From Craspedostauros australis (taxonomy: Eukaryota): 45,942 bases of DNA. The DNA lies in the NCBI GenBank assembly GCA_030167865.1, contig JALAGF010003398.1, positions 1 through 45,942 on the forward strand. Direction: 5' to 3'. The notes under the pieces were generated by a model, which saw only the letters and a program-made list of their open reading frames with translations, was not told where the DNA came from and made no database searches. How positions within the stretch are numbered: the stretch's first letter is position 1; every line of letters begins with the position of its first letter. Shown piece after piece: positions 6,066 through 45,942 of this stretch. Position numbers and translations under genes: made by a program.

Positions 6066-7946
6066 CTACTGGTCCAGCCTCGTGCCTCGCAGATCCACCC
6101 CAATGTCAACGAGAGCCTGATATTGAGATCTGTGCATGGCGCTGGAGATATCGTCGGCGCTTGCGACCCCCTTGAATCGACGGCGTTGTCCGTCCAGCCA
6201 TATTCGCAGGGCAGCGTGCTTCAAGGAAAGCTTCGGCTTGGAACCAATGTCAACATGTCCGTACTTTTCCTTGAATTGGCGCAGATCCTCGAACTTGCGA
6301 TTCCATTGTTCCTTCTTGAAGTTCCAAACGAACCCGAGATCAGTCAGCAGTCTTTCGCGTTCCTCGCTCAGCACACCTCGCGCCTTCCCGGTGCGTTGCC
6401 GCTTCACCCAGTGGCTCAAGCTTGTGTTGGCCGTTGCGTCTCGGGGGAACGGGCCTTCCACATGCCCGTGCTTCTTTTTGTACTCCACCAGCATCTGATA
6501 TTTGGCATGCCAGGTCTCCTCATGCACATCCAAAAGCAATGGTAGATCCCGCAGTTTGCTCGGTCCATGCTCATTCGCCGCGAAATGTGCCGTGGCATTC
6601 GTCTTCGATTTGTTCGTGCTGGCGGTATCGTCGTCGGAATGAAGGTTCATCCTTCCCAAGGCTCTGAGCCTCCCACCTTCGCTGGATCGATCATCCTCGT
6701 CGACGTCATCATGATCTCGCAAGAATCTGCGAAGCTTGATGCGCTGTCCCGCGACCCACGTGTGCAACGCGTGGTTGGACATGGGAACGCGCGTGTGTCC
6801 GTGTTCCTCGTAGAACTTGCACAAACGTTCGTAATTCTCCTCCCACGAGTCTTGGCGCAACGTCCAGGAAAAGCCGATCTTCTCCAACGCCCGGATGCGA
6901 TCCTGCGATACCTTGCCGGCCGAATACATGATGCGCTGTCTGGCAACCCACTGTGCCAGTTCTTTGTTCTCCTCGTCCGTCGACGGCACCTGCGCCTGGC
7001 CGTGCTCCTTGCTGTACTCGCAGAGCTGATCGTACAGCCTCCACCACCATTCCTCCAGCGGATCCAAGCTAAAGCCAATGCTCAGCAGCATCTTCTCGCG
7101 TTCGGGATCCAGCCGGTTGGCCTTGTACGCCTTGCGTTGGTTCTCGATCCAATAATTCAAGGTCTTGTTCTCGGATCGTTTCACTTCCATGCGTCCGTCG
7201 TGCTGCTCAGCGAATCGCAGCAGGTGATCGAAGTGCCTGTGCCACATGGCCTCATTGTTTGACCACTTGAAACCCAGCGACTCCAATAGCGTTGCCTTGA
7301 GTTGGAATTTCTTCAGCTTGCTGATCTTCTTGTTGCGGTATGCCGAGCGTTGGCTTTCGATCCATTCTGCGAATTCTTCGCTGACGCCCAACTTTTTTCG
7401 TTCCTCGCGGCATGCCTTTGCCCTGCTGGAGGGAACGTGGCAATCACCATGTTCTTCCCTGTACTGCAGGAGAAGCTCAATCATGGCCCTGTCTTCTTCG
7501 TCGAGGCTGTAGCCCTCTAACATGTTCGCGACAGCCGCCTCCCTGCTGCCTTCGTCACTATCGTCGTGCAGGTCGTCGTGGACCTGCTGCTGCTGCTTCT
7601 GCTTCTTCTGCCGCTGGCTGGACGAAAGGAACCGGCGAGAAACCGCTGCATGACACCTGTCATCTGCAATCTGCGGCCATCCCAATTCCCACTGTGAAAG
7701 GCAAGGGTTTGACGCAAGAGCGCGTGCCGAATCGGTAAATCGGATGACAGCATTCGTTGTTGACGCTATACTGCTGTTCCGAATGCACGGCCGGGTCAAT
7801 CGCAAGTGCAGTTGCGACGATGAGAATCGTTGGACGGTCTGTCGCCTGGTCGCGTTGGCCGGGCCCCACGCCGCTCTCCTCGCCGTCCTCTTCGCACTGC
7901 TGACGGTAGCCCCAACCGCGAGAATTGAAGCGCGAGAACCCAACAT
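6066..7946 (-). CDS. Helicase-associated (HA) repeat protein with six repeats and a probable mitochondrial presequence (626 aa)
   Basis: Six copies of the pattern W..y..L..y...hGh..Vp.....L..Wv..QR......l...r...L..lGF.W. The N-terminus is Arg/Ser/Ala-rich and poor in acidic residues (QRFSSS, RRFLSSS). No helicase motifs are present. Confidence 0.85.
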   Translation of the reverse strand: MLGSRASILAVGATVSSAKRTARRAAWGPANATRRQTVQRFSSSQLHLRLTRPCIRNSSIASTTNAVIRFTDSARALASNPCLSQWELGWPQIADDRCHAAVSRRFLSSSQRQKKQKQQQQVHDDLHDDSDEGSREAAVANMLEGYSLDEEDRAMIELLLQYREEHGDCHVPSSRAKACREERKKLGVSEEFAEWIESQRSAYRNKKISKLKKFQLKATLLESLGFKWSNNEAMWHRHFDHLLRFAEQHDGRMEVKRSENKTLNYWIENQRKAYKANRLDPEREKMLLSIGFSLDPLEEWWWRLYDQLCEYSKEHGQAQVPSTDEENKELAQWVARQRIMYSAGKVSQDRIRALEKIGFSWTLRQDSWEENYERLCKFYEEHGHTRVPMSNHALHTWVAGQRIKLRRFLRDHDDVDEDDRSSEGGRLRALGRMNLHSDDDTASTNKSKTNATAHFAANEHGPSKLRDLPLLLDVHEETWHAKYQMLVEYKKKHGHVEGPFPRDATANTSLSHWVKRQRTGKARGVLSEERERLLTDLGFVWNFKKEQWNRKFEDLRQFKEKYGHVDIGSKPKLSLKHAALRIWLDGQRRRFKGVASADDISSAMHRSQYQALVDIGVDLRGTRLDQ

Positions 7947-9166
7947 AATCGTGGCAATTGCTCAACGATGAAGGTTTGGTTTTCGGTCTGAATTCTGAAG
8001 TGTCCCGTTGGGTGCGCTCCTTTGTAATCGTGTGTCGTCGACCAACTCTGTGTTATGCCAATAGTGTGGTGGCTCGTATGCTTCTGCCCCGACGTTCGAG
8101 TATGGAAGGTGCGAGTATGGTGTGGTGAAGTCACCGAATGAACGGCTGGAGTGCAGAGAGTTGCCAGAAGATCCGAGCGGTTTCAGGTTGATGTGTTGAT
8201 GTGCTCTTGTTCTGTGGTTGTTGTTTGGTTTGTGGGGATCAATTAGCTCTTGTGTAATTCTCATCCACTTTCGGCTGCTTTGTTGGTTGATTTGAGTCTA
8301 GTCAAGTACCAATACGTCCGTGTAGGCCATAATTGTGTGAAAGTGGTGAGTATTCATTTGCTTTGATCTATTATCGCCAAAGGAGAAGCAACCGTGATTA
8401 TTGACTAGATTGACTCAACTCATCACCAATCATGTGTTTGTGTTGGATCGAATTTCTGGCTTCTTCTTTTTGTCGTTGTTGTTGTGGTTGCATGTGCGAT
8501 GGCGTGACGAAGACAAAGTCAGTAGGACGCGATGGTGTGACGACACCACGATTTTGTGCCAAACAAGAAAGCACAACAAACACACCGTGAAGCAAGGCGC
8601 AGAGTCGAAGCTGGAGACACGCCACACACTTCCGCAACGGACTGTGGGCCACTTCTGGAGTTTTCTGATCCTCGAATCAGCACAATGGTCATCACACAGT
8701 CGATCCATTATACACACTGCATTCCACCCAAGACAGAGACGGAGACAGAGACAGAGGAGTTCAAACACTGTTGCTTTGGACAAACAGACCAGAAGCAAAC
8801 GCGCACCAGAGCATTGCCAAGGAGTGAAGCACCAGCCGTGATCACACAAGAAGACAGACAGTTCTTTGCAGCGTTTGTGTTTGCAAGGGTTGATGCACAA
8901 AGGCGACGACGATAGAGCCTAAAAGAGACTGGAGTAGCTTAGCGTACCGTGCCGCACCGTGCATATAGTCCTCTCTAACAAAGAACAGCAGGGGACGGTT
9001 GTGTGAGAAGCACCGAGCTTGAGTACTCCACTTGCTCCATATTCAAAAGAGAGAAAGGGTTCCATTCTGCTCTTAATTAACACTAGCCAGACATTCACGT
9101 CGGTTGTGGGCACGTGGTCGACTGAGCGATCGCGTAGGCCAATCTGCCGCTCAGTCAGCCAACCAC

Positions 9167-9197
9167 TTGATCAATCAATTGATCAATCAATTGATCA
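9167..9197. repeat. 12-bp tandem repeat (TTGATCAATCAA) x2.6 containing the TTGATCAA palindrome
   Basis: Read directly; ends about 65 bp upstream of the RRN3 ATG. Confidence 0.9.
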
Positions 9198-9261
9198 GAG
9201 ACGGTCTGTCACACCCGCATCCACACTCGCGGTCGAGCACACAGCGTCATTCCTTGAAGAA

Positions 9262-12058
9262 ATGTCTGCTTTGGTCGACAGCACCGCTGCCGTGGTGGCG
9301 CAGACGCCTCGACATCCCACAAAGGTGAAGTCGACCACCCGCATCTCTGACCGCATCGTCCCAACGGTGACGCCCGTTGCGCCTGATCGTGCCAATGGTG
9401 CTGCCACGAGAAGCGGCATCGCAGTGGGTGGCAGTGTTGGAGTCACGCCCAACGCCAAAAGTCCCGGCGCCAATGCTGCGACTGCCGCTGATTCTGGAGA
9501 GAGCGTGTATGACAGACTCAAGAATTTCCTCCTCCCGAAGTGCGTGACGCCAGGCGCACGCGAGATGCAGCCTGTGGAAAGCTTCGTTGCCAATGCGATT
9601 GCCTCCAGACACACGTCGGATGACAACCCCGCGCATGACAAGGCGTATGCTGCGATCCTGGACGCGTTGCGTCGGCCTGCGGATCCCGAGATGCTTAGAC
9701 GCATTCTGCTCGCGTTTCGCACGGCTGGCAATGGCACCACCATGATCCAGCTCACTGGCTCGGCGCACACGCACGCCCAGCTCATCCACCTGCTCTTCCG
9801 GCTCAACTCATTCGACCCGCCCGCGTACAAGAAGCCGCCGACGCAGGATATGCTGAAGCCCTTCGAAACCTACTCGCTTGCGGATGCTCACATGAATGTG
9901 CTGCTGGCCCTCGTGTCGGCGCAGTCCACCAACGTCATCCCAGCCTTGCGATATGGCTGGAGGATGCTCATCTCGCGCGACGGCAACGCTCCCAATTCGT
10001 TGGTCGACAGAATACATGCCTTCCTCGCCAGCGTCATGCGTCTCGTGCCGCGCGCACGGTCGGACATGTTCTCCGTCATGTCGTCCACCTGTCCATTCTG
10101 GGCGGCCGACCAGAGCAAGATCATTTGGTTTTACAGACAGTGCCTCTCCGTGCTCAGGTATCACCCCAGCATCGAGACGCAAGTGCTGGAGCTCATCATC
10201 GACAAATCGTTGGAGATGGATGTCAACATCCAAATCAAGGACACCGGCGAGGCCTCCGTCGACGACAAGGCCAAAGGCAACGACAACGGCGACGACGCTG
10301 CTTTCGATTTGGATCTGGGGACGGGAGATGAGGCTGGTGCCAAGAAGCAACTGCAAAGTTCCAAGACCGCTGGCATTGACGTTGATGAATTGTCGGACAA
10401 GGTAAGGCCTCCGCAAGGCGAACGACGGGACGCGAGATATCATCCGAGCAGAAAGACTACTTTTGGGAGCATCATGGCGGTGTTCATCAACATAATTACT
10501 GCGGACGACGGTGGTGCTGCTCTGCACTTTCCGCAACAGATACTCAATGGTTTGTCGTTGCTGTTACTGCTTCTCCCGATTTCAACGTGATCCTCTCCCT
10601 TCCGATGCCATCGCACGATTTCTGCGAACCGTTCCTCTGCGATCCCATTGCACAATACATCTTCAGCTTGATTGCCTCCTGTACATCCTGCTAAAGTACG
10701 TCGACGACAAAGTGAAGGACGAGGCCGATGCACGACAGATCTACCAGGACATCGAACCCATCTTCGAGTCATCCATCCTGACGACGCACAAATCCAAGTT
10801 CGTCCAATTCTGCGTCTTCCATCTGTGCGGTCTGGAGATTGCGGCCCTGCAGAAACGGATCCAAGATCCGGACGAGCTGGCGCAGAGCTGCACGCTGGAC
10901 CGCGACTTTGCATCCAAGCTACTGGAGATCATCATCGATCCTTACCGCGCCACGACGACCAGACAGAGCGGCGCCTGCTACCTCGCCTCCTTCATCAGCA
11001 GAGCCAACTACGTGACATCCGACACTGTCTGCGAGGCGGTGGCAGCGCTGCTGCGGTGGGCCGAGGCCTACATCAGGTCCATCGAGGATACCTACATTCA
11101 TGCCACGGATTCGAGAGAGCAGAGCAAGTTCCATTCTCTGTTTTACACCGTGTGCCAGGCCGCATTCTACATCATGAGCTTCCGCGGCAAAGACGCCATC
11201 CTGTACCACCGCAGAGTGATGGAACAGCAAGCAACGCCGACAGGTGACGAACAACATCAACGCCAACACCACCAAGAAGAGGAGTATGAAGCTGACATGA
11301 ACATCGCCGGCAAACGATGGACCGTGATCTGTCAACATCCTTTGCAACCGCTTAAATTCTGCCTCGAAAGCGTCCGCAGCGAATTCCTTCACGTGGCGCA
11401 CGTCTTCGAGCTCGTCGACACGCAAGTCCTGAAGCAGCTGGTGAAGGACGCGCGCAACCTGTCCACCGGGCGCGTCGGTCGCAAGTCGGCATCGCGCATC
11501 TCCACAGCGGGCACATTGGCGCGACGGCGTCAGACCGGAGGCGTGGGTGGTCTGGGACAGGGTTCCAATCCACTGAACTCGTTCTTCCCGTTCGATCCGT
11601 TGCTGCTGCGACGATCACACGGATACGTCGAACCGGTGTACAACTACTGGCAAGGACCGTTGGATGATGATGACTTTGAAGAGGACATGGCCGACACGGA
11701 TACTGACAACGGTGTTCACATTGAAGCGGGCGGTGTCACATCCGAACATGACAACGACGACGATGATGATGATGATGATGATGACGAGGATGACGATGAG
11801 GAGGAGGAAGGTGACGAAGATAGCGACGATGAAGACGGCGACAGAAGCGAGTACAACGATGACGAATCCTTCGTCCAATCCTGCGATTCGGTAGGAACCA
11901 GACCGATGAGCTTTGGTTCCGCAGCGCCCACCGAATTTCCGCACATCATGCACACGCCGCAACGAGCAATCATCGACAAAGACACGCTGCGCAACATTTG
12001 GACGGATGCAGTAAAGCGGCCACGATCACATAGTATCCATTCGAACGGGAGTTGGTGA
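9262..12058 (+). CDS. RRN3: RNA polymerase I transcription initiation factor RRN3/TIF-IA (~843 aa, 2 exons)
   Basis: Exons 9262-10401 and 10667-12058; the junction gives DK|LD. RRN3 motifs LEMDVNI, ILTTHKSKFVQF, RQSGACYLASFISRA, FYTVCQAAFYIMSFR, LQPLKFC and FFPFDP, plus an acidic tail. Confidence 0.93.
11762..11782 (+). repeat. (GAT)7 microsatellite encoding poly-Asp in the RRN3 tail
   Basis: Read directly. Confidence 0.9.
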
Positions 12059-13050: not shown

Positions 13051-13629
13051 GGTGATTTTGATAGTGATAGTGATTGTTGTCGTGGTTGGTGTATGGGTAT
13101 GAGTTGGTGTATGTAATCTATTGGTTTGAGTATTGGTATGGAGATTATGAGTTGCTGTGTTGCAGGTACTTGTAACTCGTAGTACTACGACAACGAATGC
13201 CCCAATTGCGAAGTTGGATTTGTTTTGGTTGTTGTGGGTGTCGACAGGATGATGTGTTGGTGCGTTCGTGTTGATTGTGACCAGGTTGTCATCGGCGTCA
13301 TCCACCTCGCTCTTTGGTGATCTTTCTTGTGTGATGTGTCAAAGATCGCAACCACAACAGCAACAGCACAACAAATCGAAACGTCAACCACAAGTCTATC
13401 AAATCTGATCTAGAGAGAGAATACACGAACGTACCTACACTTGTGGACGGCTTTCCTTGAGAGTAGTGGACTTATTGACACATCGACAATGATTAAAACT
13501 CCATCTCTCACTCCTCTGACAGAGTGAGTACACGTAGACCCGTCCAAAAATGCAGCGCTACCACTATTAGACATCGCCACCTTCCATTTTACTATCCTAA
13601 TCTGCATTCGTGTTCACGAGTACCCCACT

Positions 13630-14879
13630 CTACTTCCCAACCCGCACAATCTTGTGCGCCAACGCCGCCGCGCCAAATCCATTGTCGATGTTGACAACGC
13701 CAACGCCTGGCGCGCAGCTGTTCAACATCGTCAGCATGGCGCTGATGCCTCCCAGCGACACGCCGTATCCGATGCTCGTCGGCACGGCGATCACGGGGAC
13801 GTTGGCAAGACCGCCGACGACGCTGGGCAAGGCACCGTCCATGCCAGCACAAACAATGATGCAGCCAACCTCGGGGTCGCTCAGCTTGGGGATGTTGCAC
13901 ACGATGCGATGCAACCCTGCGACACCGACGTCCGTGATGCGCTCCACGTCGCAACCCGTCGCCTCCAATGTCACGGCGGCTTCTTCAGCGACTGGTAAAT
14001 CCGTTGTGCCGGCCGTGGCGACGATGATCCGTTTCATTGCGTTGGCCGATTTTGCTGACGATTGATCAGCCTCGTTACCATCGGACAGCGACGATGCTTG
14101 CATCGATATGATCCTCGCAGTCTCATGGTACTCTATTGAGCCATTCTCCAATGGGTATTGCTTCAATTCTTCGTACTGTTGCATTGTCACTCTGCAACGG
14201 CATTGTCGTAGAGTAGAATAGAGTCGAGTACATTAGAGTAGAGTATTTGATGTTGTTTGTCAGTGTGGTATCCGTCGGGACAGATGCCATTGACATAGAA
14301 GCAGACAGAGCAACGTCCAGTGAGCAGAGCAGAGCAGGCAGAGCACCAGCGGCGGCGGCAGGAGAAGGTGAAACACCAATGCCATCAGCTCCACCTGTAG
14401 ATTCAAGAACGAATCTGCGGATGCCCAATCAATACAGCTCAGAGTGCAACAGAACACGCACTGCTCTCCACCCACCTGGTTGCCAGTATGGCCTTTTGGG
14501 AATCCATCAAGTCCCCCGCATCCACATGCTCGTTCACGTTCTTGGCCATGTCATCGAGGATCTTGGCCACCTGGAATGCCGTCTTGCCTTCCGCGAAGAC
14601 AGCCTCGGGGAATCCGGTCCGTCGTGAACGCGTGTGATCCAAGTTTGCGAACTGGGCCAGCGCATCTTCCGGCGTCGTTGTGAGGAGCGCTTCGGCGGCG
14701 CTGGGTTCCATCGTCCCATTCTTCACCTGTTCCAGGATTTCGGATACAGATACGGATGACGATGACGATGTTGCAGAACGTTGCACGACCAAGCAACGTC
14801 CTGTGGCTGGGCTGTGGATTGGTCGGCCATTGCGCAGCAACCGCAGTAGGTCTCCCGTCCTCAAACTTCTTGGCATCAT
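13630..14879 (-). CDS. larB: LarB-like protein (PurE/AIR-carboxylase fold; nickel-pincer cofactor biosynthesis P2CMN synthase family) with a probable mitochondrial presequence (~321 aa, 2 exons)
   Basis: Exons 14879-14476 and 14191-13630; the phase-2 GT-AG intron restores the conserved LATR|V. LarB motifs [72 protein letters not shown] and [21 protein letters not shown]. Confidence 0.92.
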
Positions 14880-16047
14880 GGTTGGGGTGTGAGGTTGTTC
14901 AGGCGGCGACTGTATGGCACTGTGTCTGCGGCTGCGATTGCGATGCGGCTGTTTGCTTCGGTGTCTTCGTTGGTATTGTTGGTTGTGCGCCGTGCCATGT
15001 GATGTGGTCATTTTCTCCGGAGATGGAGGCCAGGCAGGATTGTTCGACACTGATCTTCGTTGTCGTGAGCACATGACGTCATTCATCGCTCCTCCAACAA
15101 AAAGGACACACACCAAACTCATATTCTACAACTCTGTGTCTTTCCACAATGTGAGAATGGTCCAGGAGAACCGGATCAGAGACGAGGACGTCTACGACCG
15201 ACTCTACTCTGAAGCACCGCATCTGTATTGATGGCAGCAGCATGTACGATGTTGAAAGTTCGCCTTCTTCAGAGTCTGCTGTCACATGCTCTTGCTCTGG
15301 AACCAAGCTTCTATGCTAATCTCTGTAGACTGAGTTGATTTGTCGAACAACAAGACTCATGACGGACAATAGCCCGATCAACCATGTCTGTTTGTGTATT
15401 GTTTCTGTCTGTTTGAAAACCACAAGACTGACAGAAACGACATTTTCATATTGTTCGTTTTCTGAGTTAGACTTGACGGACAAGTAAATACGAACACAAT
15501 TGTGTTTGATTTTTCGTCAATACCGTTTTCAATCGAACATGTATGACGGACATATTCAATCGTGCTTTCGTGTATCGAAACCGAATGAGTCATTCAAGTC
15601 GTACATGTCCAATCCGTGTTCTGTCGAGACAGAACCAGTGACACGCATCTTCCTTTCGTTTACGTGTCACAAAATGGAAGCGAAAATCGAGGAAGTTGCA
15701 AAGAACTGCGGCCAAAGAACGAACAGAGGCGAACACAAGGGAGACAAACTTCAAACTTCATCGCTCCGCATCCCAAACCATTCATTCCAGACGAGAAATC
15801 GATCGTCACCACAAAATAGAAAAGACACACACGTCGACACAACGCAACGCAATCGATTGACACGCACAACCCAAAAGAACACAACCACAAAAGTCCTTCC
15901 GCTCTACTCGCACACACACACGCAAACACACGCCCAAGAATGCATTTGAGCATGACGACGGGTGCGACCACAATCACGAGCACACCGAGTACGCACAATG
16001 ATCATCACACAACAGCGGTGAGACGAAGACAACGACGAGGCACCACC

Positions 16048-17292
16048 ATGCGCGCAAACTTCGAATTACGCACGGTGTTCATGGCTGCCACAACGTCCTT
16101 GCTAGCACTGCATGGCATGTCAACGTGCGATGCCTTCCACCAAACCAGGCTGCGCGAAGCGACTCTGGCTGGTGCGCCGGTATTGGAAGCATCATCGCAC
16201 CTGGTTCCCACCGTCGCAACTGTGAATGTGGAAGTGCTTGAGGGATTGAACCGGTTGATCAACCGCGATCCAGCACACTGGAACTCACCATTTCCCTTCA
16301 CCGCAAGAGGAGAGGGAAGGCATGAGGAGCTCATCCATCCCGTTGCATTCCTGCGACAACCCAAGCATCACACACAACAAGCACGTGCTAGTTCACGCAC
16401 ACCGACATCGCCATCGCGATTGCCATCAACATCAACACCATCCGTGGCATCACCGAAGAGCGTCGTGTTCCTTGGCGGCCCTGCCTCCGGAAAGGGAACG
16501 CAATGCAAGCTTCTGGCACAGCGTCAAGGCTTGGTGCATCTGTCGACCGGCGATATGCTTCGAGAGGCAGTGAAACAGCAATCCGAAGAAGGCATGAAGG
16601 CCAAGAGCTTCATGGGCGCCGGCGAGCTCGTCCCGGATGAGGTCGTCGCTGGCATCATCAGCGAACGCCTCCAGGATGAGGACTGCCAATCACGCGGCTA
16701 CATCCTGGATGGATTCCCGCGCACAAGACAGCAGGCGAGGTTCCTGAAGGACTCAGGCATCTCACCCGACGTGACGGTGCTGCTCGATGTCCCAGAAGAC
16801 CAGCTCATCCAGAGGGTCGTGGGACGACGCCTGGATCCTGAAACGGGAAAGATCTACCATCTCCAGTACCTACCACCGCCACAAGAAGTCAAGTCCCGAC
16901 TGCTGCACCGGGACGATGATCGCATAGAGACCGTGGCGCCACGCATCCGCCGGTACAATGAGAATTTGGAGGACATCATCGAGGAGCTTGAGAAGGATGC
17001 GCCATTCTTCCGGGTGGATGGTTGCGGCGAGGTCGACGATGTATCCTCCCGTATCCAATCGGCGCTGAAATCGGTGGAACCGTCATCGCAACGCCTTCTG
17101 ACATCCGAAGGGTGGTTGCAAAACTTTGAAGCTGCTGAACTGGAAGCCTCGTCCCCAAGTTACGCCTTGATGAGTGAAGAACAACTTTCATCGTCGCAGC
17201 ATGAGATCACAGAAGAGCACGGCAATCGTCATCGTCGCCATAGCCACAACCATCACCACCGCCATCGCCATCCCGTTCATGGTGTGGCATAA
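16048..17292 (+). CDS. adk: Adenylate kinase, probably plastid-targeted, with a His-rich C-terminal tail (~414 aa)
   Basis: P-loop GGPASGKGTQ, HLSTGDMLR, GELVPD, GYILDGFPRT, LID RRLDPETGKIYH and HRDDD. Signal peptide ending TCDA|FH. An upstream ATG at 15952 is also possible. Confidence 0.92.
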   Translation: MRANFELRTVFMAATTSLLALHGMSTCDAFHQTRLREATLAGAPVLEASSHLVPTVATVNVEVLEGLNRLINRDPAHWNSPFPFTARGEGRHEELIHPVAFLRQPKHHTQQARASSRTPTSPSRLPSTSTPSVASPKSVVFLGGPASGKGTQCKLLAQRQGLVHLSTGDMLREAVKQQSEEGMKAKSFMGAGELVPDEVVAGIISERLQDEDCQSRGYILDGFPRTRQQARFLKDSGISPDVTVLLDVPEDQLIQRVVGRRLDPETGKIYHLQYLPPPQEVKSRLLHRDDDRIETVAPRIRRYNENLEDIIEELEKDAPFFRVDGCGEVDDVSSRIQSALKSVEPSSQRLLTSEGWLQNFEAAELEASSPSYALMSEEQLSSSQHEITEEHGNRHRRHSHNHHHRHRHPVHGVA

Positions 17293-18810: not shown

Positions 18811-19497
18811 GTGATATGGTGCTTCCTCGCTGACAACATGCAAGTATTTTTGGAAGTTTCTCGATTGTGGAAGGAGCTGTGTTGGGTTGGGTTGGGCTGG
18901 GCTCGTAAATATGACAACTTGGAATGAGCAATCGTGCTTCGATTCAGATGAACAGCTTTCCATGTGAACTTGGACGACAATCGGCATAGTAGTACCACTG
19001 CAAATGGCGCAGCATGTTCCGTCAGTCTCAAATGACACAATGTGCCGAGCAGAAGTCTTCTTTTGCGAGGAGCGAGGAGCGAACGATACAAGGACGGCGC
19101 CCACTTACCCGTCCATCCCTAACTATAATATGATGGCTCTGCCAGGTTACCAATGTACAACATAATAGAGGCACTCGCATGTACTCGTACTCAATGTGCT
19201 GCTTTGTTGCCGATGTTGCGGAAGCGAGAGGGCGAAACGAATGCAATCCATCCACGCAATTTGCAGCGAGATGACGTCATGTGTACCTCGGCGAATCCAG
19301 AGAAGCGAAAGAGAAAGCTCCCAAACTCGTGCTAATCCTGACACAGCAACATCTCCGCCAACATGTTCATCACAATGATCACTCATTCATTCACTCGTTC
19401 ACTCTGAATGTATCGACGCATTCACATTTCACAACCACACCATCTACGCCTGACGGCAATTGCATCATTCACTCACACACATGGTAGACAAGCCCAC

Positions 19498-20727
19498 ATG
19501 ATGACCAAACTGCGATCGTTTCTGAGATCGTCCACCACCAGTGCGCTGACCCTCTCATCATTGTCGCTGTCAGTCGGCTTTACCAGCTCCTTCGTCACAA
19601 GCGCCATCACGCATCCGGCCCATCACCATTGCTCACATCACGCCTTCCAGCCGTCATCGATTGTGTCATCGACACCCGCAATCTTTCGTTTCGCGTCGTC
19701 CGAGAGCAACAACGGCAACGGCAACAGCAACAGCAAGATCAGCCTCAACATGGCGCAGGCCGAATCGGCAACAGCCGATGCCAAGGTCCAAACAGCAACG
19801 TCGGATGAGATGGGTGCTGCATTGGACGAGAGCAATACCATATGGAACGATCTGCTGCCATACGAGAAAGGGTCACACAATTCAGCACGGATCGTTGTAC
19901 CAGATCATCATCAGCAACAGCAGCAGCAGTGTGACCAACAGGAGGATCCAACAGACGGCGACACTGCATGCATTGACGCATTCGATAAGTCGCAGTTCCA
20001 ACAACGCCTGGCGAACACCATCGCAGCAATGAAGGAGATTGGCAAATCCAGCCTTTGGGTCGAGATCCCGATGACCCGCGCCAGCCTCATCGAGGACATG
20101 AACGCGCTGGGCTTCGAGTTCCACCACGCCCAAGGCAAGACGGCCAAGCTCAATCTCTGGCTCAAGGATGCCACCGAATCCAAGGTCCCCGAATACGCCA
20201 CGCACCACGTGGGCGTCGGCGCCGTCGTCATCAACAGCCGCGACGAGATCCTGTGCGTGCGCGAGTTGCGTCGCAACTTCATGCCGTGGAAGATCCCCGG
20301 CGGTCTGGCCGATCTGGGCGAGCACATTGCGGAGGCGGCGCAGCGCGAAGTGCTCGAGGAGACCGGTATCGACGCAACCTTCCACAGCATCCTCAGCTTT
20401 CGGCACACGCATGGTCTGGGCAACGGTCGATCGGATCTGTATTTCGTGTGTCGTTTGGATCCCGTCGAGGTTGTGGATGAGGCGGGCGTTGCGATGATAC
20501 CAGCTCCCGTGCCGCAGGAATGCGAGATCGAGTCGGCGGCGTGGATACCGATGCAGCAGTACAAGGACATGGTGCGGGGCAACGATGGTGGCAGCGGCCA
20601 TCCGATGATGAGCCATGTCATGGATGTGCTGGAGACGGGCATGCAGATTCGGAAACGGACAGTTCACAGCGTTGTACCGGGACGCAAGCCCAATCCAATG
20701 TACCATCCGTGCGTCACGGAGGAGTGA
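19498..20727 (+). CDS. Nudix hydrolase of the NUDT6/AtNUDX2-8 type, with a pre-Nudix domain and an organellar presequence (~409 aa)
   Basis: Nudix box GGLADLGEHIAEAAQREVLEETG. Family motifs GFEFHHA, PEYATHHVGVGAVVIN, SFRHTH and SDLYFVCRL. Hydrophobic, Ser-rich N-terminal extension. Confidence 0.9.
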   Translation: MMTKLRSFLRSSTTSALTLSSLSLSVGFTSSFVTSAITHPAHHHCSHHAFQPSSIVSSTPAIFRFASSESNNGNGNSNSKISLNMAQAESATADAKVQTATSDEMGAALDESNTIWNDLLPYEKGSHNSARIVVPDHHQQQQQQCDQQEDPTDGDTACIDAFDKSQFQQRLANTIAAMKEIGKSSLWVEIPMTRASLIEDMNALGFEFHHAQGKTAKLNLWLKDATESKVPEYATHHVGVGAVVINSRDEILCVRELRRNFMPWKIPGGLADLGEHIAEAAQREVLEETGIDATFHSILSFRHTHGLGNGRSDLYFVCRLDPVEVVDEAGVAMIPAPVPQECEIESAAWIPMQQYKDMVRGNDGGSGHPMMSHVMDVLETGMQIRKRTVHSVVPGRKPNPMYHPCVTEE

Positions 20728-29848: not shown

Positions 29849-31069
29849 TTACGACCGCGCACCCACATCGATCAACTCTTGGACGTAATGCATTGTGAAT
29901 AGCGAACAGGATGAGACGACGGCCGTCGTGGCCAAACCGGCCTCTTCGATTGCCTCCTTGAGTAGCTCGAAGAGGGCAACCCACGCCATGGCACCACCAG
30001 CAAAGCCCAATCCAACTGGAAGCACTGGAATGAAGTGATGCACGAATTCGTAAGCGGGAACGGCCATCAGCGGTTGCGGGATGCTGGAGAGCACGGCCCA
30101 GAGGAAGGCTTCTGGGATGCTGGTGCCTCGTGGCAGTAATGTGACTGCCATGGCGAGGCCCTCCGGGATATTGTGCACGGCGAGACTGGCCGAGATGAAG
30201 ACGCCCAGTTCGCTGCCGTGGCTGCCGCCGAAGCTGACACCGATTCCAACGCCCTCCGAAAAGGAATGCAGCGTCATGACGAAGAATATCAGCAGGGCTC
30301 TTTTGGCGTCCGCACCACCCAAGCTCCCGATGCTGAGCTCTTCATGGCTCGACAAGAATTTCTCTGTGATTCGAATGAAAATAAGCCCGATGACAGCCCC
30401 GATGCCTGTTCTGGTGTAGCTGTCCAATTCTGCAGTGTCATGCGGATCGTCGAAGTTGCACCCCTCCGTAACAAGCGAGTAGCTGGCAGCAATCATCATA
30501 CCGGCGGCGGCGGCTGAAGATAGTTAGTAGCAATGGCGGTAGCAAAAGTGGCGGCCGGAATGATTGAATTATGAAAGGTTAGAAGAGCCATATATGTACA
30601 AAGGTAGGAAATTGCTGGAAGAACAAGATAAAGCAATCATTTGCTTGGAGACCGAATTGTTTGTGTGGAGTGGCAATGCCAACAATGCCAACCTCATCAG
30701 AGAGGGTGGCAATGATGATTTCGATAACACCGATGATCAGAACGATCTCCTTGACTGGCTGCTTGTCTGTGTTTGGTGGTTCTGTTTTTGCTGTTGAAAG
30801 GATTGGAAATGACATCATGCCCATCATATGTCGGAGCATGAAGCAGGCTTACCATTGGATATTCCGACCCAATACTCTGCCAGATTTTTTGTCAGCATCA
30901 ATGGCAACACGCCAAAGCCTGTGCTTATCGCAGTCAGCCACCCGTAATAGAAGACATGTTGTATCGATGGCTCCTCTCCATGATGTGGCTGGAAGGGTGT
31001 TGGAATTGTGATGTATGAGATGAGCGCGAGCGCCACGATGCCGCCATAGACGTAGGGTGAGTCTGGCAT
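29849..31069 (-). CDS. ZIP-family (GufA/ZupT-like) divalent metal transporter (~293 aa, 2 exons)
   Basis: Exons 31069-30853 and 30513-29849 (phase 1; junction SN|AAAAGMMIAAS). TM4 LHSFSEG, TM5 AVHNIPEG and GFAGGAM. Confidence 0.9.
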
Positions 31070-44975: not shown

Positions 44976-45942
44976 TCAGTATTGGAAGTTCCGAGTTTGC
45001 GAAATGTTGAAGAGAACGTCCCTACAGGATTGGAGCAGCCACTCCTTCGTCGCTTCGTCTACCTGATTCGCGATAGTGCTGTAGGGTTTCTGATCCATAG
45101 CTGCCCAGCCGTTTCTCTTGTACCTGCTACGCACGGCATTTCGCACGATGAATTCGTTGTTGGTTGCTCTCGTTCCCCACACGCGGACTTGGCGACCGCC
45201 TGTATCGTTGTACAGACCTTCCTCGGGATAGCCGAATTTCTCGTCCTTCATGAAATCGATGGCGGCCGTCTTCAGTGCGCCGGGTCCGGTGACTACGGGA
45301 ATGCGCTGCCTCAGCACATTGTTGACGTCGAACAGACGCAAGTAGACCCGATGGACGGCGTAGAACATGAGGGGATGTTTGGGCGACGCCGCGATGAAGT
45401 ACTGCGCGGGGAAGCCACCGCCTTCGACGACTATGTAGGCATCATCGTCCGGCTGGATTGCGGCGTCGGTGGTGAACCGAGGTCCAGGGGCGCTGTCCAT
45501 GTCGGAGTAGATACCACCGTACTCATACAGGACAAGATATCGCCAGAGATCGGTCTTGGCGGCGCCACTGATGAGGCATTCCTGTATCAGTTGCAGATGC
45601 GGAAACTCGGGCCAAAACTTCGTGAGCAACCTATCCACGGCTGGATCGTCATGGAAGAGGAAGGAGTGGCCTTCCAGCTCCCAATTCTTCAGGCTGGACC
45701 GGAATGCCCCTGTCAAGCAGGGTCTCTTGCCGCTAATGTGCACGATCCTTGGGATCTTGCGCGGCGGCAGCGTTTGGTTGGCGAACGTGCTGTTGATGAA
45801 GAAGGTGCCATTGGGGCACATATGCGGGTCAAACTTGCTCGTCTGGACGAGATCCTCCAGCGGGATGTAATCAATCTCGCGGCTGGTGTGCTTGGCCCTC
45901 TCCTTGGACATGCCTGGTGCTGCGGTCGCCCGTCGGTCGGGA
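44976..45942 (-). CDS. GT32 (Och1/Sur1-like DXD) glycosyltransferase, 5' part outside the window
   Basis: KIPRIVH, AKTDLWRYLVLYEYGGIYSDMD (DXD), FIAASPKHP and TGPG. The frame stays open from the ATG at 45911 to the window edge and no TM anchor is visible, so the gene probably starts upstream. Confidence 0.88.
   Translation of the reverse strand, partial: PDRRATAAPGMSKERAKHTSREIDYIPLEDLVQTSKFDPHMCPNGTFFINSTFANQTLPPRKIPRIVHISGKRPCLTGAFRSSLKNWELEGHSFLFHDDPAVDRLLTKFWPEFPHLQLIQECLISGAAKTDLWRYLVLYEYGGIYSDMDSAPGPRFTTDAAIQPDDDAYIVVEGGGFPAQYFIAASPKHPLMFYAVHRVYLRLFDVNNVLRQRIPVVTGPGALKTAAIDFMKDEKFGYPEEGLYNDTGGRQVRVWGTRATNNEFIVRNAVRSRYKRNGWAAMDQKPYSTIANQVDEATKEWLLQSCRDVLFNISQTRNFQY

What the first reader, a model, noticed from the sequence alone, without database searches (positions are those of the whole stretch)
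13630..14879. Spliced, apparently mitochondrion-targeted LarB: a possible nickel-pincer nucleotide (NPN) cofactor pathway in a diatom
Seen: a complete LarB-family ORF interrupted by a canonical 284-bp GT-AG intron and flanked by eukaryotic genes, so bacterial contamination is unlikely. About 40 aa of Arg/Ser-rich, acid-poor sequence precede the LarB N-terminal helix ([10 protein letters not shown]). The NSC cysteine is intact. The usual TAGTSD and GMEG motifs read TAGTTD and GMDG. Established: bacterial LarB carboxylates and hydrolyses nicotinic acid adenine dinucleotide, the first step to the NPN cofactor (LarB, then LarE, then LarC) used by LarA racemases/epimerases. The recognised nickel enzymes of diatoms are urease and Ni-SOD. 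Inference: diatom mitochondria may hold a third nickel-dependent system, or LarB has been repurposed (cyanobacterial CpmA is a homologue). No larA/C/E is in this window, and I cannot say whether eukaryotic homologues are already characterised.
Basis: partly seen in the sequence, partly recalled or inferred. Interest (0 to 1): 0.8.

Follow-up and report, generated by a model that had tools for sequence, protein, structure and literature searches.

The report
Spliced LarB gene in a diatom
A diatom nuclear gene, split by one intron and carrying a mitochondrion-type leader, encodes LarB, the enzyme that starts synthesis of the nickel-pincer cofactor; it is conserved across diatoms but mislabelled in databases, and such genes are already reported from other single-celled eukaryotes.

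Summary
On the minus strand, exon 1 (14879-14476), a 284-nt GT-AG intron (14475-14192) and exon 2 (14191-13630) give a 321-aa protein. A public-run contig matches both exons without a mismatch and skips exactly those 284 nt. Exon 2 alone passes NCBI's LarB equivalog model (200 bits, cut-off 175), while PurE scores 33 (cut-off 149.6). The catalytic-type Cys is invariant in 103 of 103 aligned LarBs. TAGTTD and GMDG are natural variants. Neighbouring genes are eukaryotic and have similar GC3.

Orthologues at 55-76% identity occur in at least 15 named diatoms. All carry a basic, acid-poor leader and nearly all lack a signal-peptide core, so mitochondrial import is plausible but unproven.

The wider claim is only partly supported. 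No genome was available, the window holds no LarA, LarC or LarE, and my searches for diatom copies were uninformative. One lead exists: a DUF111 (LarC-family) transcript reported in Nitzschia laevis.

The novelty is limited. Nickel-pincer genes in unicellular eukaryotes are in print, and an oomycete LarA homologue (gluconate 2-epimerase) was characterised in 2024. I file this as a new member of a known kind, of moderate interest.

The parts
14476..14879 (-). Exon 1 of larB: ATG at 14879, 134 codons plus the first two bases (AG) of codon 135. It encodes the leader and the LarB N-terminal domain.
   Evidence: NF033503 positions 1-38 match residues 80-117 at 31.3 bits. A bacterial LarB hits 14741-14547 by tblastn at E 2.6e-8.
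14763..14879 (-). Codons 1-39: the N-terminal leader that lies before the first column of bacterial LarB homology. It is a presumed mitochondrial presequence.
   Evidence: 7 R/K, 1 D/E and 8 S/T in 39 aa. Pooled leaders of 19 diatom proteins have 16.9% R+K and 1.2% D+E, against 8.4% and 10.7% in the rest of the protein; net charge +5 in the first 30 aa and no hydrophobic core (maximum KD10 0.85).
14192..14475 (-). Spliceosomal intron, 284 nt, GT...AG, phase 2.
   Evidence: Sequence. A public-run contig joins 14191 to 14476 and skips 284 nt, with ends CT..AC on the + strand. Intron GC is 51.4% against 57-58% in the exons.
13630..14191 (-). Exon 2 of larB: the last base of codon 135, then 186 codons and the TAG stop (13632-13630). 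It encodes the linker and the AIRC/PurE-fold catalytic domain.
   Evidence: NF033503 200.2 bits (cut-off 175) and Pfam AIRC 50.9 bits. PDB 7MJ0 LarB matches at E 1.9e-41.
13714..13716 (-). TGC codon of Cys294, which aligns with Cys221 of L. plantarum LarB (the NSC motif).
   Evidence: The alignment places the C of LNSC at chain position 221. The column is Cys in 103 of 103 aligned LarBs.
13538..13629 (-). 3' untranslated region, at least 92 nt.
   Evidence: The spliced contig extends to 13538.
14880..15122 (-). In-frame open stretch upstream of the favoured ATG, with further ATGs at 15122, 15086, 15074 and 15011. This is either 5' UTR or an alternative longer N-terminus. The question is unresolved.
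   Evidence: 81 codons without a stop, and a start at 15122 gives a hydrophobic N-terminus (maximum KD10 2.65). The transcript contig stops at 14648, so the 5' end was not observed.

Best explanation
[quoted passage not shown] It most likely does what bacterial and cyanobacterial LarB do. [quoted passage not shown] The roughly 39-aa basic, Ser/Thr-rich, acid-poor leader most likely directs the protein into mitochondria, where it would be cleaved.

Shown here: the gene model, a splice-joined contig in one public run (taken to be the spliced transcript if that run is RNA), family membership, conservation of the invariant residues, conservation of the gene and of the leader's character across diatoms, and the eukaryotic context.

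Inferred: the enzymatic activity, the mitochondrial location, and that LarE, LarC and an NPN-using enzyme exist elsewhere in the genome.
For: Family membership:
- Exon 2 alone scores 200.2 bits on the NF033503 LarB equivalog (cut-off 175), against 33 bits on purE (cut-off 149.6).
- L. plantarum LarB structure 7MJ0 matches at E 1.9e-41.
- The Cys221 column is Cys in 103 of 103 sequences. The D128, K, Y and N(IDNG) columns match the near-invariant prokaryotic residue.

The two motif differences are natural variants:
- The S127 column is T in 19 of 19 diatoms, A in 10 of 10 cyanobacteria, and S52/A17/T1 in 70 other prokaryotes.
- The E180 column is D in 19 of 19 diatoms and 4 of 4 other eukaryotes, and D in 11 of 70 other prokaryotes.

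Cyanobacterial LarB works in NPN synthesis. Synechocystis larB, larE and larC replace the L. plantarum genes in E. coli (PMC11796402, passages).

Expression and conservation:
- A spliced contig has 0 mismatches.
- Orthologues occur in transcriptomes and genomes of at least 15 named diatoms at 55-76% identity.
- 9 of 9 eukaryotic or fused homologues scanned pass the LarB cut-off, at 219-294 bits.
- The 19 diatom rows form one clade (SH-aLRT 99), with centric species branching first, which fits vertical descent.

Leader:
- 19 of 19 diatom proteins have net charge +2 to +8 in the first 30 residues.
- 18 of 19 lack a signal-peptide-like hydrophobic core.
- An R-x-[FYLIM]-[SAT] site occurs in 12 of 19, against 6.9 expected from shuffles.

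Pathway plausibility in stramenopiles:
- Phytophthora has LarB.
- Aphanomyces invadans has LarC.
- P. nicotianae has an active LarA homologue (PMC11770544).
- A 'DUF111-domain-containing protein' transcript is reported in Nitzschia laevis (PMC8401676).
Against: - No LarE, LarC or LarA is in the 45.9-kb window. None was found among 52 ORFs of 185 aa or more, and the best tblastn E-value was 0.032.
- No diatom LarE, LarC or LarA sequence was recovered by any search here. Those searches were crowded by bacterial hits, so they do not show absence either.
- The window's own leader has no strict R-3 cleavage motif and carries one Asp at residue 10.
- The 5' end of the mRNA was not observed. A start at 15122 would give a signal-peptide-like N-terminus.
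- The run that shows the splice is only guessed to be RNA.
- No activity data exist for any eukaryotic LarB that I could find.
- A mitochondrial LarB needs NaAD inside mitochondria, which I did not examine.
Confidence: 0.7

Rival explanations
1. Stand-alone or repurposed LarB. Diatoms would keep LarB but not LarE or LarC, and the product (P2CMN or a related carboxylated pyridine nucleotide) would serve another role, such as NAD-pool regulation or signalling, or the unexplained 'circadian phase modifier' phenotype of the cyanobacterial homologue (recalled, not checked here).
For: No LarE, LarC or LarA was found in the window, and none was recovered for diatoms in any search. All diatoms share T at the S127 column and D at the E180 column, a combination that is rare in prokaryotes.
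Against: In every system tested, LarB works with LarE and LarC (PMC11796402, PMC13524815). All 5 cyanobacterial genomes searched hold LarB, LarE and LarC together. Oomycetes have LarB, LarC and an active LarA homologue. A DUF111 transcript is reported in a Nitzschia species. The failed searches were limited by the tools and do not show absence.
Confidence: 0.15
2. Same enzyme, different compartment. The true start would be an upstream ATG (15122), giving a signal peptide followed by a transit-peptide-like stretch, so the protein would go to the plastid or the secretory pathway. Alternatively the leader is not cleaved and the enzyme is cytosolic.
For: 81 in-frame codons without a stop lie upstream of the favoured ATG. 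A start at 15122 gives a hydrophobic N-terminus with maximum KD10 2.65. The 5' end of the transcript was not observed. LarB may derive from cyanobacteria, since an eukaryote-plus-cyanobacteria clade is not rejected (p-AU 0.889). Aphanomyces LarC starts directly at the conserved motif with no leader.
Against: 18 of 18 other diatom orthologues, including transcript-derived ones marked complete, start with a short basic leader of 18-68 aa, and 17 of those 18 have no hydrophobic core. The residue after the putative signal-peptide cleavage site would be Met, not the Phe/Trp/Tyr/Leu that I recall as typical of diatom plastid signals (recalled).
Confidence: 0.15
3. It is a PurE-type AIR carboxylase or N5-CAIR mutase of purine synthesis, as public records name the orthologues ('phosphoribosylaminoimidazole carboxylase', 'AIR carboxylase').
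For: Pfam AIRC scores 50.9 bits. The source names of the diatom orthologues say so.
Against: TIGR01162 purE scores 33 bits against a 149.6 cut-off, while LarB scores 200.2 against 175. PurE structures match only at E 6e-8 to 2e-6, against 1.9e-41 for LarB. The LarB-specific N-terminal domain and the NSC cysteine are present.
Confidence: 0.02
4. Bacterial contamination, or a recent unexpressed horizontal insert in the assembly.
For: The family is overwhelmingly prokaryotic. The best prokaryotic matches reach 46-68% identity.
Against: The gene has a GT-AG intron, and a contig that skips it exactly stands in a public run. GC3 of 66-71% lies within the neighbours' range of 57-76%. Eukaryotic genes lie on both sides of it. 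The diatom clade follows diatom relationships.
Confidence: 0.01

Closest known systems
LarB of Lactiplantibacillus plantarum (PDB 7MJ0-7MJ2; P2CMN synthase)
   Same: The AIRC-fold catalytic domain matches at E 1.9e-41 over residues 118-242 of the chain. The Cys221 equivalent, D128 and the PTS, GYG and NIDNG motifs are conserved. The LarB N-terminal helices are present.
   Different: The diatom gene is nuclear and has an intron. The protein has a roughly 39-aa basic leader and a longer linker between the two domains: 321 aa against a median of 259 aa for 80 prokaryotic ORFs. Thr replaces S127 and Asp replaces E180.
Cyanobacterial LarB (Synechocystis sp. PCC 6803 LarB; CpmA-type homologues)
   Same: A phototroph lineage whose LarB, LarE and LarC make NPN (PMC11796402). 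A clade of eukaryotic plus cyanobacterial LarBs is not rejected (p-AU 0.889). In the quick tree, Cymbomonas and Phytophthora LarB group with 10 cyanobacteria (SH-aLRT 95).
   Different: Cyanobacteria have Ala at the S127 column and Glu at the E180 column (10 of 10), and no leader or intron. The paper says most cyanobacteria lack LarA, and 4 of the 5 genomes I searched did. The user enzyme is unknown in both cyanobacteria and diatoms.
Oomycete NPN system (Phytophthora nicotianae LarAH15 = D-gluconate 2-epimerase; Phytophthora LarB; Aphanomyces invadans LarC)
   Same: These are also stramenopiles with nuclear lar genes. Their LarB passes the equivalog cut-off at 255-256 bits. This is the only eukaryotic NPN enzyme with shown activity (PMC11770544).
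   Different: Oomycete LarB is only 51-54% identical to the window's protein. In the quick tree it did not group with diatoms, although a single eukaryotic clade is not rejected (p-AU 0.891). Aphanomyces LarC has no leader. No LarA homologue is known to me for diatoms.
PurE (N5-CAIR mutase / AIR carboxylase, Pfam PF00731)
   Same: Same fold family. This is the source of the public annotation of the diatom orthologues.
   Different: It fails the purE model (33 bits against 149.6). It has the LarB N-domain and the catalytic Cys that define LarB.

Membership tests
LarB (NCBIfam NF033503, P2CMN synthase) | Score above the curated equivalog cut-off (175 bits) | tested here: met
   Exon 2 alone scores 200.2 bits on model positions 59-208. 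Exon 1 adds 31.3 bits on positions 1-38. The spliced protein could not be submitted as one sequence.
LarB (NCBIfam NF033503, P2CMN synthase) | Nucleophilic cysteine (Cys221 of L. plantarum LarB, NSC motif). Its role is recalled from the title of Rankin et al. 2021, which I could not read. | tested here: met
   Cys294 aligns with chain position 221 of 7MJ0. The column is Cys in 103 of 103 sequences.
LarB (NCBIfam NF033503, P2CMN synthase) | LarB-specific N-terminal domain ahead of the AIRC-fold domain | tested here: met
   Residues 40-134 align with bacterial N-termini, including the GFPE and EGKT motifs, which are E in 69 of 70 and K in 69 of 70 other prokaryotes.
LarB (NCBIfam NF033503, P2CMN synthase) | TAGTSD and GMEG motifs (S127, E180) | tested here: inconclusive
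   They read TAGTTD and GMDG. Both positions vary naturally: A in 10 of 10 cyanobacteria, and D in 11 of 70 other prokaryotes. The functional limits of these positions were not available to me, because PMC8488589 is not held.
LarB (NCBIfam NF033503, P2CMN synthase) | Catalyses NaAD + CO2 to P2CMN + AMP | not testable with these tools
   Needs an enzyme assay or complementation.
Complete NPN cofactor pathway (LarB + LarE + LarC + a user enzyme) | LarE (TIGR00268) and LarC (TIGR00299/PF01969) in the same genome | not testable with these tools
   No genome is held. Both are absent from the window. Searches for diatom copies were uninformative. The only lead is a DUF111 transcript in Nitzschia laevis.
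Complete NPN cofactor pathway (LarB + LarE + LarC + a user enzyme) | An NPN-using enzyme (LarA superfamily PF09861, NphT-type AKR, or NPAD-type ornithine cyclodeaminase) | not tested
   None is in the window. No eukaryotic seed or genome was available.
PurE (TIGR01162) | Score above the cut-off of 149.6 bits | tested here: not met
   33 bits.
Mitochondrial matrix proteins with a cleavable presequence | N-terminal basic, hydroxylated, acid-poor leader without a hydrophobic signal-peptide core | tested here: met
   Net charge is +5 in the first 30 aa, with 1 acidic residue in 39 and maximum KD10 0.85. The same character holds in 19 of 19 diatom proteins for charge and 18 of 19 for hydrophobicity. 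No trained predictor (TargetP, MitoFates, HECTAR) was available.
Mitochondrial matrix proteins with a cleavable presequence | MPP cleavage motif (R-2 or R-3) | tested here: inconclusive
   The strict R-x-[FYLIM]-[SAT] pattern is absent from the window's leader. It is present in 12 of 19 diatom proteins, against 6.9 expected from shuffles.

The most novel reading that the evidence does not exclude
Diatoms as a group would run nickel-pincer cofactor synthesis inside their mitochondria, using a LarB of cyanobacterium-like ancestry. As in most cyanobacteria, they would feed the cofactor to an enzyme that is not a LarA homologue. Candidates would be an NphT-type aldo-keto reductase or an ornithine cyclodeaminase that uses the adenine-dinucleotide form of the cofactor. 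The second would tie nickel to the diatom ornithine-urea cycle. That diatoms have this enzyme is recalled, not checked. This would be a third, unrecognised nickel demand in a major group of marine primary producers.
Probability: 0.3. Interest if true: 0.7.

Novelty: new member of a known kind. Interest (0 to 1): 0.4.

Why it matters
Nickel use by marine phytoplankton is usually accounted for by urease and Ni-superoxide dismutase. A conserved, expressed LarB in pennate and centric diatoms suggests a further nickel-dependent cofactor system. Public records hide it under the name 'phosphoribosylaminoimidazole carboxylase'.

If LarE and LarC are also present, diatoms become a tractable eukaryotic model for the cofactor, because Phaeodactylum is transformable. 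They would also help with the open question of which enzyme uses the cofactor in phototrophs that lack LarA.

The practical gain today is smaller. It consists of a corrected annotation, a validated gene model and a testable targeting prediction.

Tried and rejected
**Genome and earlier notes**
- Whole-genome search for LarB, LarC and LarE: no genome is held.
- Earlier notes of this scan: nothing for this genome and nothing eukaryotic.

**RNA support**
- No RNA holder is listed. The single holder, X1, is only guessed to be RNA. The contig does not reach the 5' end.

**Hunt for diatom LarE**
- I used a 165-aa N-terminal piece of Anabaena LarE with lengths 'longer' (290 aa or more), hoping leader-bearing eukaryotic forms would surface.
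- All 120 listed hits were 75-95% identical; the few that carry organism names are cyanobacteria, and none came from a eukaryote source. This is uninformative.

**Hunt for diatom LarC**
- Anabaena LarC against 1.84 billion representatives gave 12,236 hits at E <= 0.001, with 150 listed.
- Of the 20 I looked up by name, 1 was eukaryotic (Aphanomyces invadans) and none was a diatom.
- None of the 150 is close to the Aphanomyces protein; the best is 42% over 483 aa.
- Only 2 of the 150 have an N-terminal extension, and neither looks like a presequence.
- ESM Atlas with Aphanomyces LarC returned bacterial clusters only.
- A metagenome scan with Aphanomyces LarC gave 79 loci at 30-56% identity (the 56% over a 36-residue stretch only), all bacterial-looking.

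**Literature**
- No paper links diatoms with LarB, LarC or LarE, with lactate racemase or with the nickel pincer. The exception is one DUF111 mention.
- Five papers were not held: Desguin 2014, Rankin 2021, Hausinger 2023 and Desguin 2025.
- The supplement of PMC11770544 held no eukaryote terms in its text, and its figures are not held.
- The supplement of PMC8401676 gave expression values only, roughly 7-30 in the table's units.

**Phylogeny**
- The quick tree split eukaryotes into two groups.
- Constrained searches found trees about 60 log-likelihood units better. Neither 'all eukaryotes' (p-AU 0.891) nor 'eukaryotes plus cyanobacteria' (p-AU 0.889) is rejected.
- The donor of the gene is therefore unresolved. 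Both groups were named after seeing the tree, and the prokaryotes were the 80 best matches to the diatom query, which is a biased sample.

**Rejected readings**
- PurE, contamination, and read-through of the intron.
Full report
**Observation**

The finding's coordinates hold a two-exon gene on the minus strand.
- Exon 1 runs from the ATG at 14879 to 14476.
- The intron, 14475-14192, is 284 nt and reads GTGGGT...TTGCAG.
- Exon 2 runs from 14191 to the TAG stop at 13632-13630.
- Joined by coordinates, the CDS is 966 nt and gives 321 aa with one terminal stop. Without splicing, the frame stops nine codons into the intron.

A public sequencing run holds one 827-nt contig (depth 21.9, no differences). 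It lies on 13538-14191 and 14476-14648 and skips exactly the 284 nt. The record only guesses that the run is RNA. Its small assembly (30,610 contigs, longest 5,407) looks to me like a transcriptome, which is my inference. The contig also shows at least 92 nt of 3' UTR, but it does not reach the 5' end.

Independent support for the junction comes from orthologues. The spliced protein reads ILATR/VT, and ATRV or ATRI stands at that point in 17 of the 18 diatom orthologues used for the leader and column counts.

**What it is**

Exon 2 alone exceeds NCBI's curated cut-off for the LarB equivalog model: NF033503 gives 200.2 bits against 175. Exon 1 matches the first 38 model positions. The purE model gets 33 bits against a cut-off of 149.6, and Pfam sees only the shared AIRC fold.

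The solved L. plantarum LarB (7MJ0) matches at E 1.9e-41. PurE structures match only at 6e-8 to 2e-6.

I aligned the window's protein with 18 diatom, 4 other eukaryotic, 10 cyanobacterial and 70 other prokaryotic LarBs.
- The cysteine aligned with Cys221 is invariant in 103 of 103.
- The D128, K, Y and N(IDNG) columns are conserved as in almost all prokaryotes.
  - The S127 column is Thr in 19 of 19 diatoms, Ala in 10 of 10 cyanobacteria, and S52/A17/T1 in the other prokaryotes.
  - The E180 column is Asp in all 23 eukaryotes and in 11 of 70 other prokaryotes.

Synechocystis larB, larE and larC replace the L. plantarum genes in E. coli (PMC11796402, passages). This shows that a cyanobacterial LarB is competent. 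I did not align the Synechocystis protein itself; all 10 cyanobacterial LarBs in my alignment carry Ala at the S127 column.

**It is the diatom's own gene**

- ORFs on both sides encode typical eukaryotic nuclear proteins: DHFR, a GT47 exostosin, a six-fold HA-domain protein, RRN3, FKBP, adenylate kinase, NUDIX, SF3B1, a ZIP transporter, NAA35 and a Myb protein.
- LarB's GC3 (66-71%) lies within the neighbours' range of 57-76%.
- Homologues at 55-76% identity occur in many diatoms: Nitzschia, Cylindrotheca, Pseudo-nitzschia, Phaeodactylum, Fragilaria, Mayamaea, Epithemia, Odontella, Ditylum, Corethron, Thalassiosira and Cyclostephanos, as well as MMETSP transcripts.
- Green algae (Cymbomonas, Closterium) and Phytophthora also have it.
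- All nine eukaryotic or fused homologues that I scanned pass the LarB cut-off.
- Their public names are 'phosphoribosylaminoimidazole carboxylase', 'AIR carboxylase', 'NCAIR mutase (PurE)-related' or 'hypothetical'. The family is therefore present in databases but mislabelled.
- In a quick maximum-likelihood tree, the 19 diatom rows form one clade (SH-aLRT 99) with centric species branching first. The window's protein sits with Cylindrotheca, Nitzschia and Pseudo-nitzschia (96). This fits vertical inheritance.

**Origin**

The quick tree put Cymbomonas and Phytophthora with cyanobacteria (95), and the diatoms plus Closterium beside them. Constrained searches found better trees. Neither a single eukaryotic clade (p-AU 0.891) nor a clade of eukaryotes plus cyanobacteria (p-AU 0.889) is rejected. 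A cyanobacterial origin, possibly through the plastid, is compatible with the data but not shown. The prokaryote sample was biased toward the query, and I named the groups after seeing the tree.

**Targeting**

Against bacterial LarBs, the window's protein has 39 extra N-terminal residues with 7 R/K, 1 D/E and 8 S/T.
- Pooled over 19 diatom proteins, the leaders have 16.9% R+K and 1.2% D+E. The rest of the proteins have 8.4% and 10.7%.
- All 19 have net charge +2 to +8 in the first 30 residues.
- 18 of 19 have no hydrophobic stretch of signal-peptide strength.
- An R-x-[FYLIM]-[SAT] site occurs in 12 of 19, against 6.9 expected from shuffles. The window's own leader has none.

Diatom plastid import needs a signal peptide (general knowledge), so mitochondria are the likeliest destination. 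I had no trained predictor and no experiment.

One caveat remains. Eighty-one in-frame codons without a stop lie upstream, and a start at 15122 would give a hydrophobic N-terminus. The orthologues argue for the shorter form.

**The rest of the pathway**

This is the weak point.
- No genome is held.
- The window has no LarA, LarC or LarE. None was found among 52 large ORFs, and tblastn with cyanobacterial and oomycete seeds gave a best E-value of 0.032, while a bacterial LarB control hit both exons.
- Attempts to pull diatom LarE or LarC from the protein collections, the Atlas and metagenomes returned only bacterial-type sequences, apart from one oomycete LarC from Aphanomyces invadans. The listings were crowded by bacterial hits, so this is no evidence of absence.
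- One lead is in the literature. A Nitzschia laevis transcript is annotated as a 'DUF111-domain-containing protein' (PMC8401676, passage). DUF111 is, by my recall, the old name of Pfam PF01969, the LarC family.

**What is already known**

- PMC11770544 (passages) says that NPN-biosynthetic genes and LarA homologues occur in some unicellular eukaryotes, citing Desguin 2014, which I could not read.
- The same paper shows that Phytophthora nicotianae LarAH15 is a D-gluconate 2-epimerase, and states that all eukaryotic LarA homologues fall in that branch.
- PMC11796402 notes that about 15% of genomes, including many cyanobacteria, have larB, larE and larC without larA. My five cyanobacterial genomes gave LarE 5 of 5, LarC 5 of 5 and Lar_N 1 of 5.
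- PMC13524815 (sections 6 and 14 and passages) adds non-LarA users. These are NphT-type aldo-keto reductases and an ornithine cyclodeaminase that uses an adenine-dinucleotide form of the cofactor. For the latter I saw only the reference.
- No open paper that I could search connects diatoms with these genes.

**Verdict**

Mitochondrial import is the best reading of a leader whose character is conserved across diatoms. A full nickel-pincer pathway in diatoms is plausible but untested here. Eukaryotic, and indeed stramenopile, NPN genes and one enzyme are already described. This is therefore a new member of a known kind. Its interest is moderate, and would rise if LarE, LarC and a non-LarA user turn out to share the compartment.

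Noticed in passing
window 14880-15122 (-): The larB reading frame stays open for 81 codons upstream of the favoured ATG, with further ATGs at 15122, 15086, 15074 and 15011. A start at 15122 would give a hydrophobic, signal-peptide-like N-terminus followed by a long basic stretch.
   Followed up: partly
window 15820-17289 (+): An adenylate kinase ORF is transcribed divergently from larB. Its ADK domain starts only at about residue 218 of the open frame, so it has either a long N-terminal extension or unrecognised introns.
   Followed up: no
window 19408-20724 (+): A NUDIX hydrolase with the PF18290 N-terminal domain lies 4.5 kb from larB. It is a nucleotide-pyrophosphatase-type gene close to an enzyme that cleaves a dinucleotide. 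This is probably coincidence.
   Followed up: no
window 29852-30523 (-): An ORF matches only the C-terminal part of a ZIP metal transporter (profile positions 176-299). The rest of the gene is probably in other exons. Its metal specificity is unknown.
   Followed up: no
window 9007-12055 (+): RRN3 (the Pol I initiation factor) is split over two overlapping ORFs in different frames (9007-10587 and 10496-12055). This implies an intron or a frameshift near 10500.
   Followed up: no
window 6069-7961 (-): A 631-aa ORF has six helicase-associated (HA, PF03457) repeats. By my recall this domain is much expanded in diatoms and other stramenopiles.
   Followed up: no
window 44976-45941 (-): An ORF open at its 5' end has a DXD sugar-binding glycosyltransferase region (PF04488). 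It also has a sub-threshold resemblance to the TcdA/TcdB glycosyltransferase domain. It is most likely an ordinary Golgi-type glycosyltransferase.
   Followed up: no
P0214 and P0228 (Phytophthora LarB records, 708 and 657 aa): Oomycete LarB gene models carry about 350 extra C-terminal residues with weak coiled-coil-type matches only. This may be a real fusion or merged gene models.
   Followed up: partly
P0215, P0232 and P0211-P0226 (unnamed and WOR-1 bacterial records): Natural LarB-LarE fusions (549-575 aa, both halves above their cut-offs) exist in prokaryote-type records. LarC-LarB fusions (PF01969 plus PF00731, from precomputed labels) exist there too. No such fusion was seen among the eukaryotic hits.
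   Followed up: partly
G001-G005 (cyanobacterial genomes behind L005, L017, L019, L037, L022): LarE and LarC are each present in 5 of 5 genomes, but a LarA N-domain in only 1 of 5. This agrees with the published remark that most cyanobacteria make the cofactor for an unknown user.
   Followed up: yes
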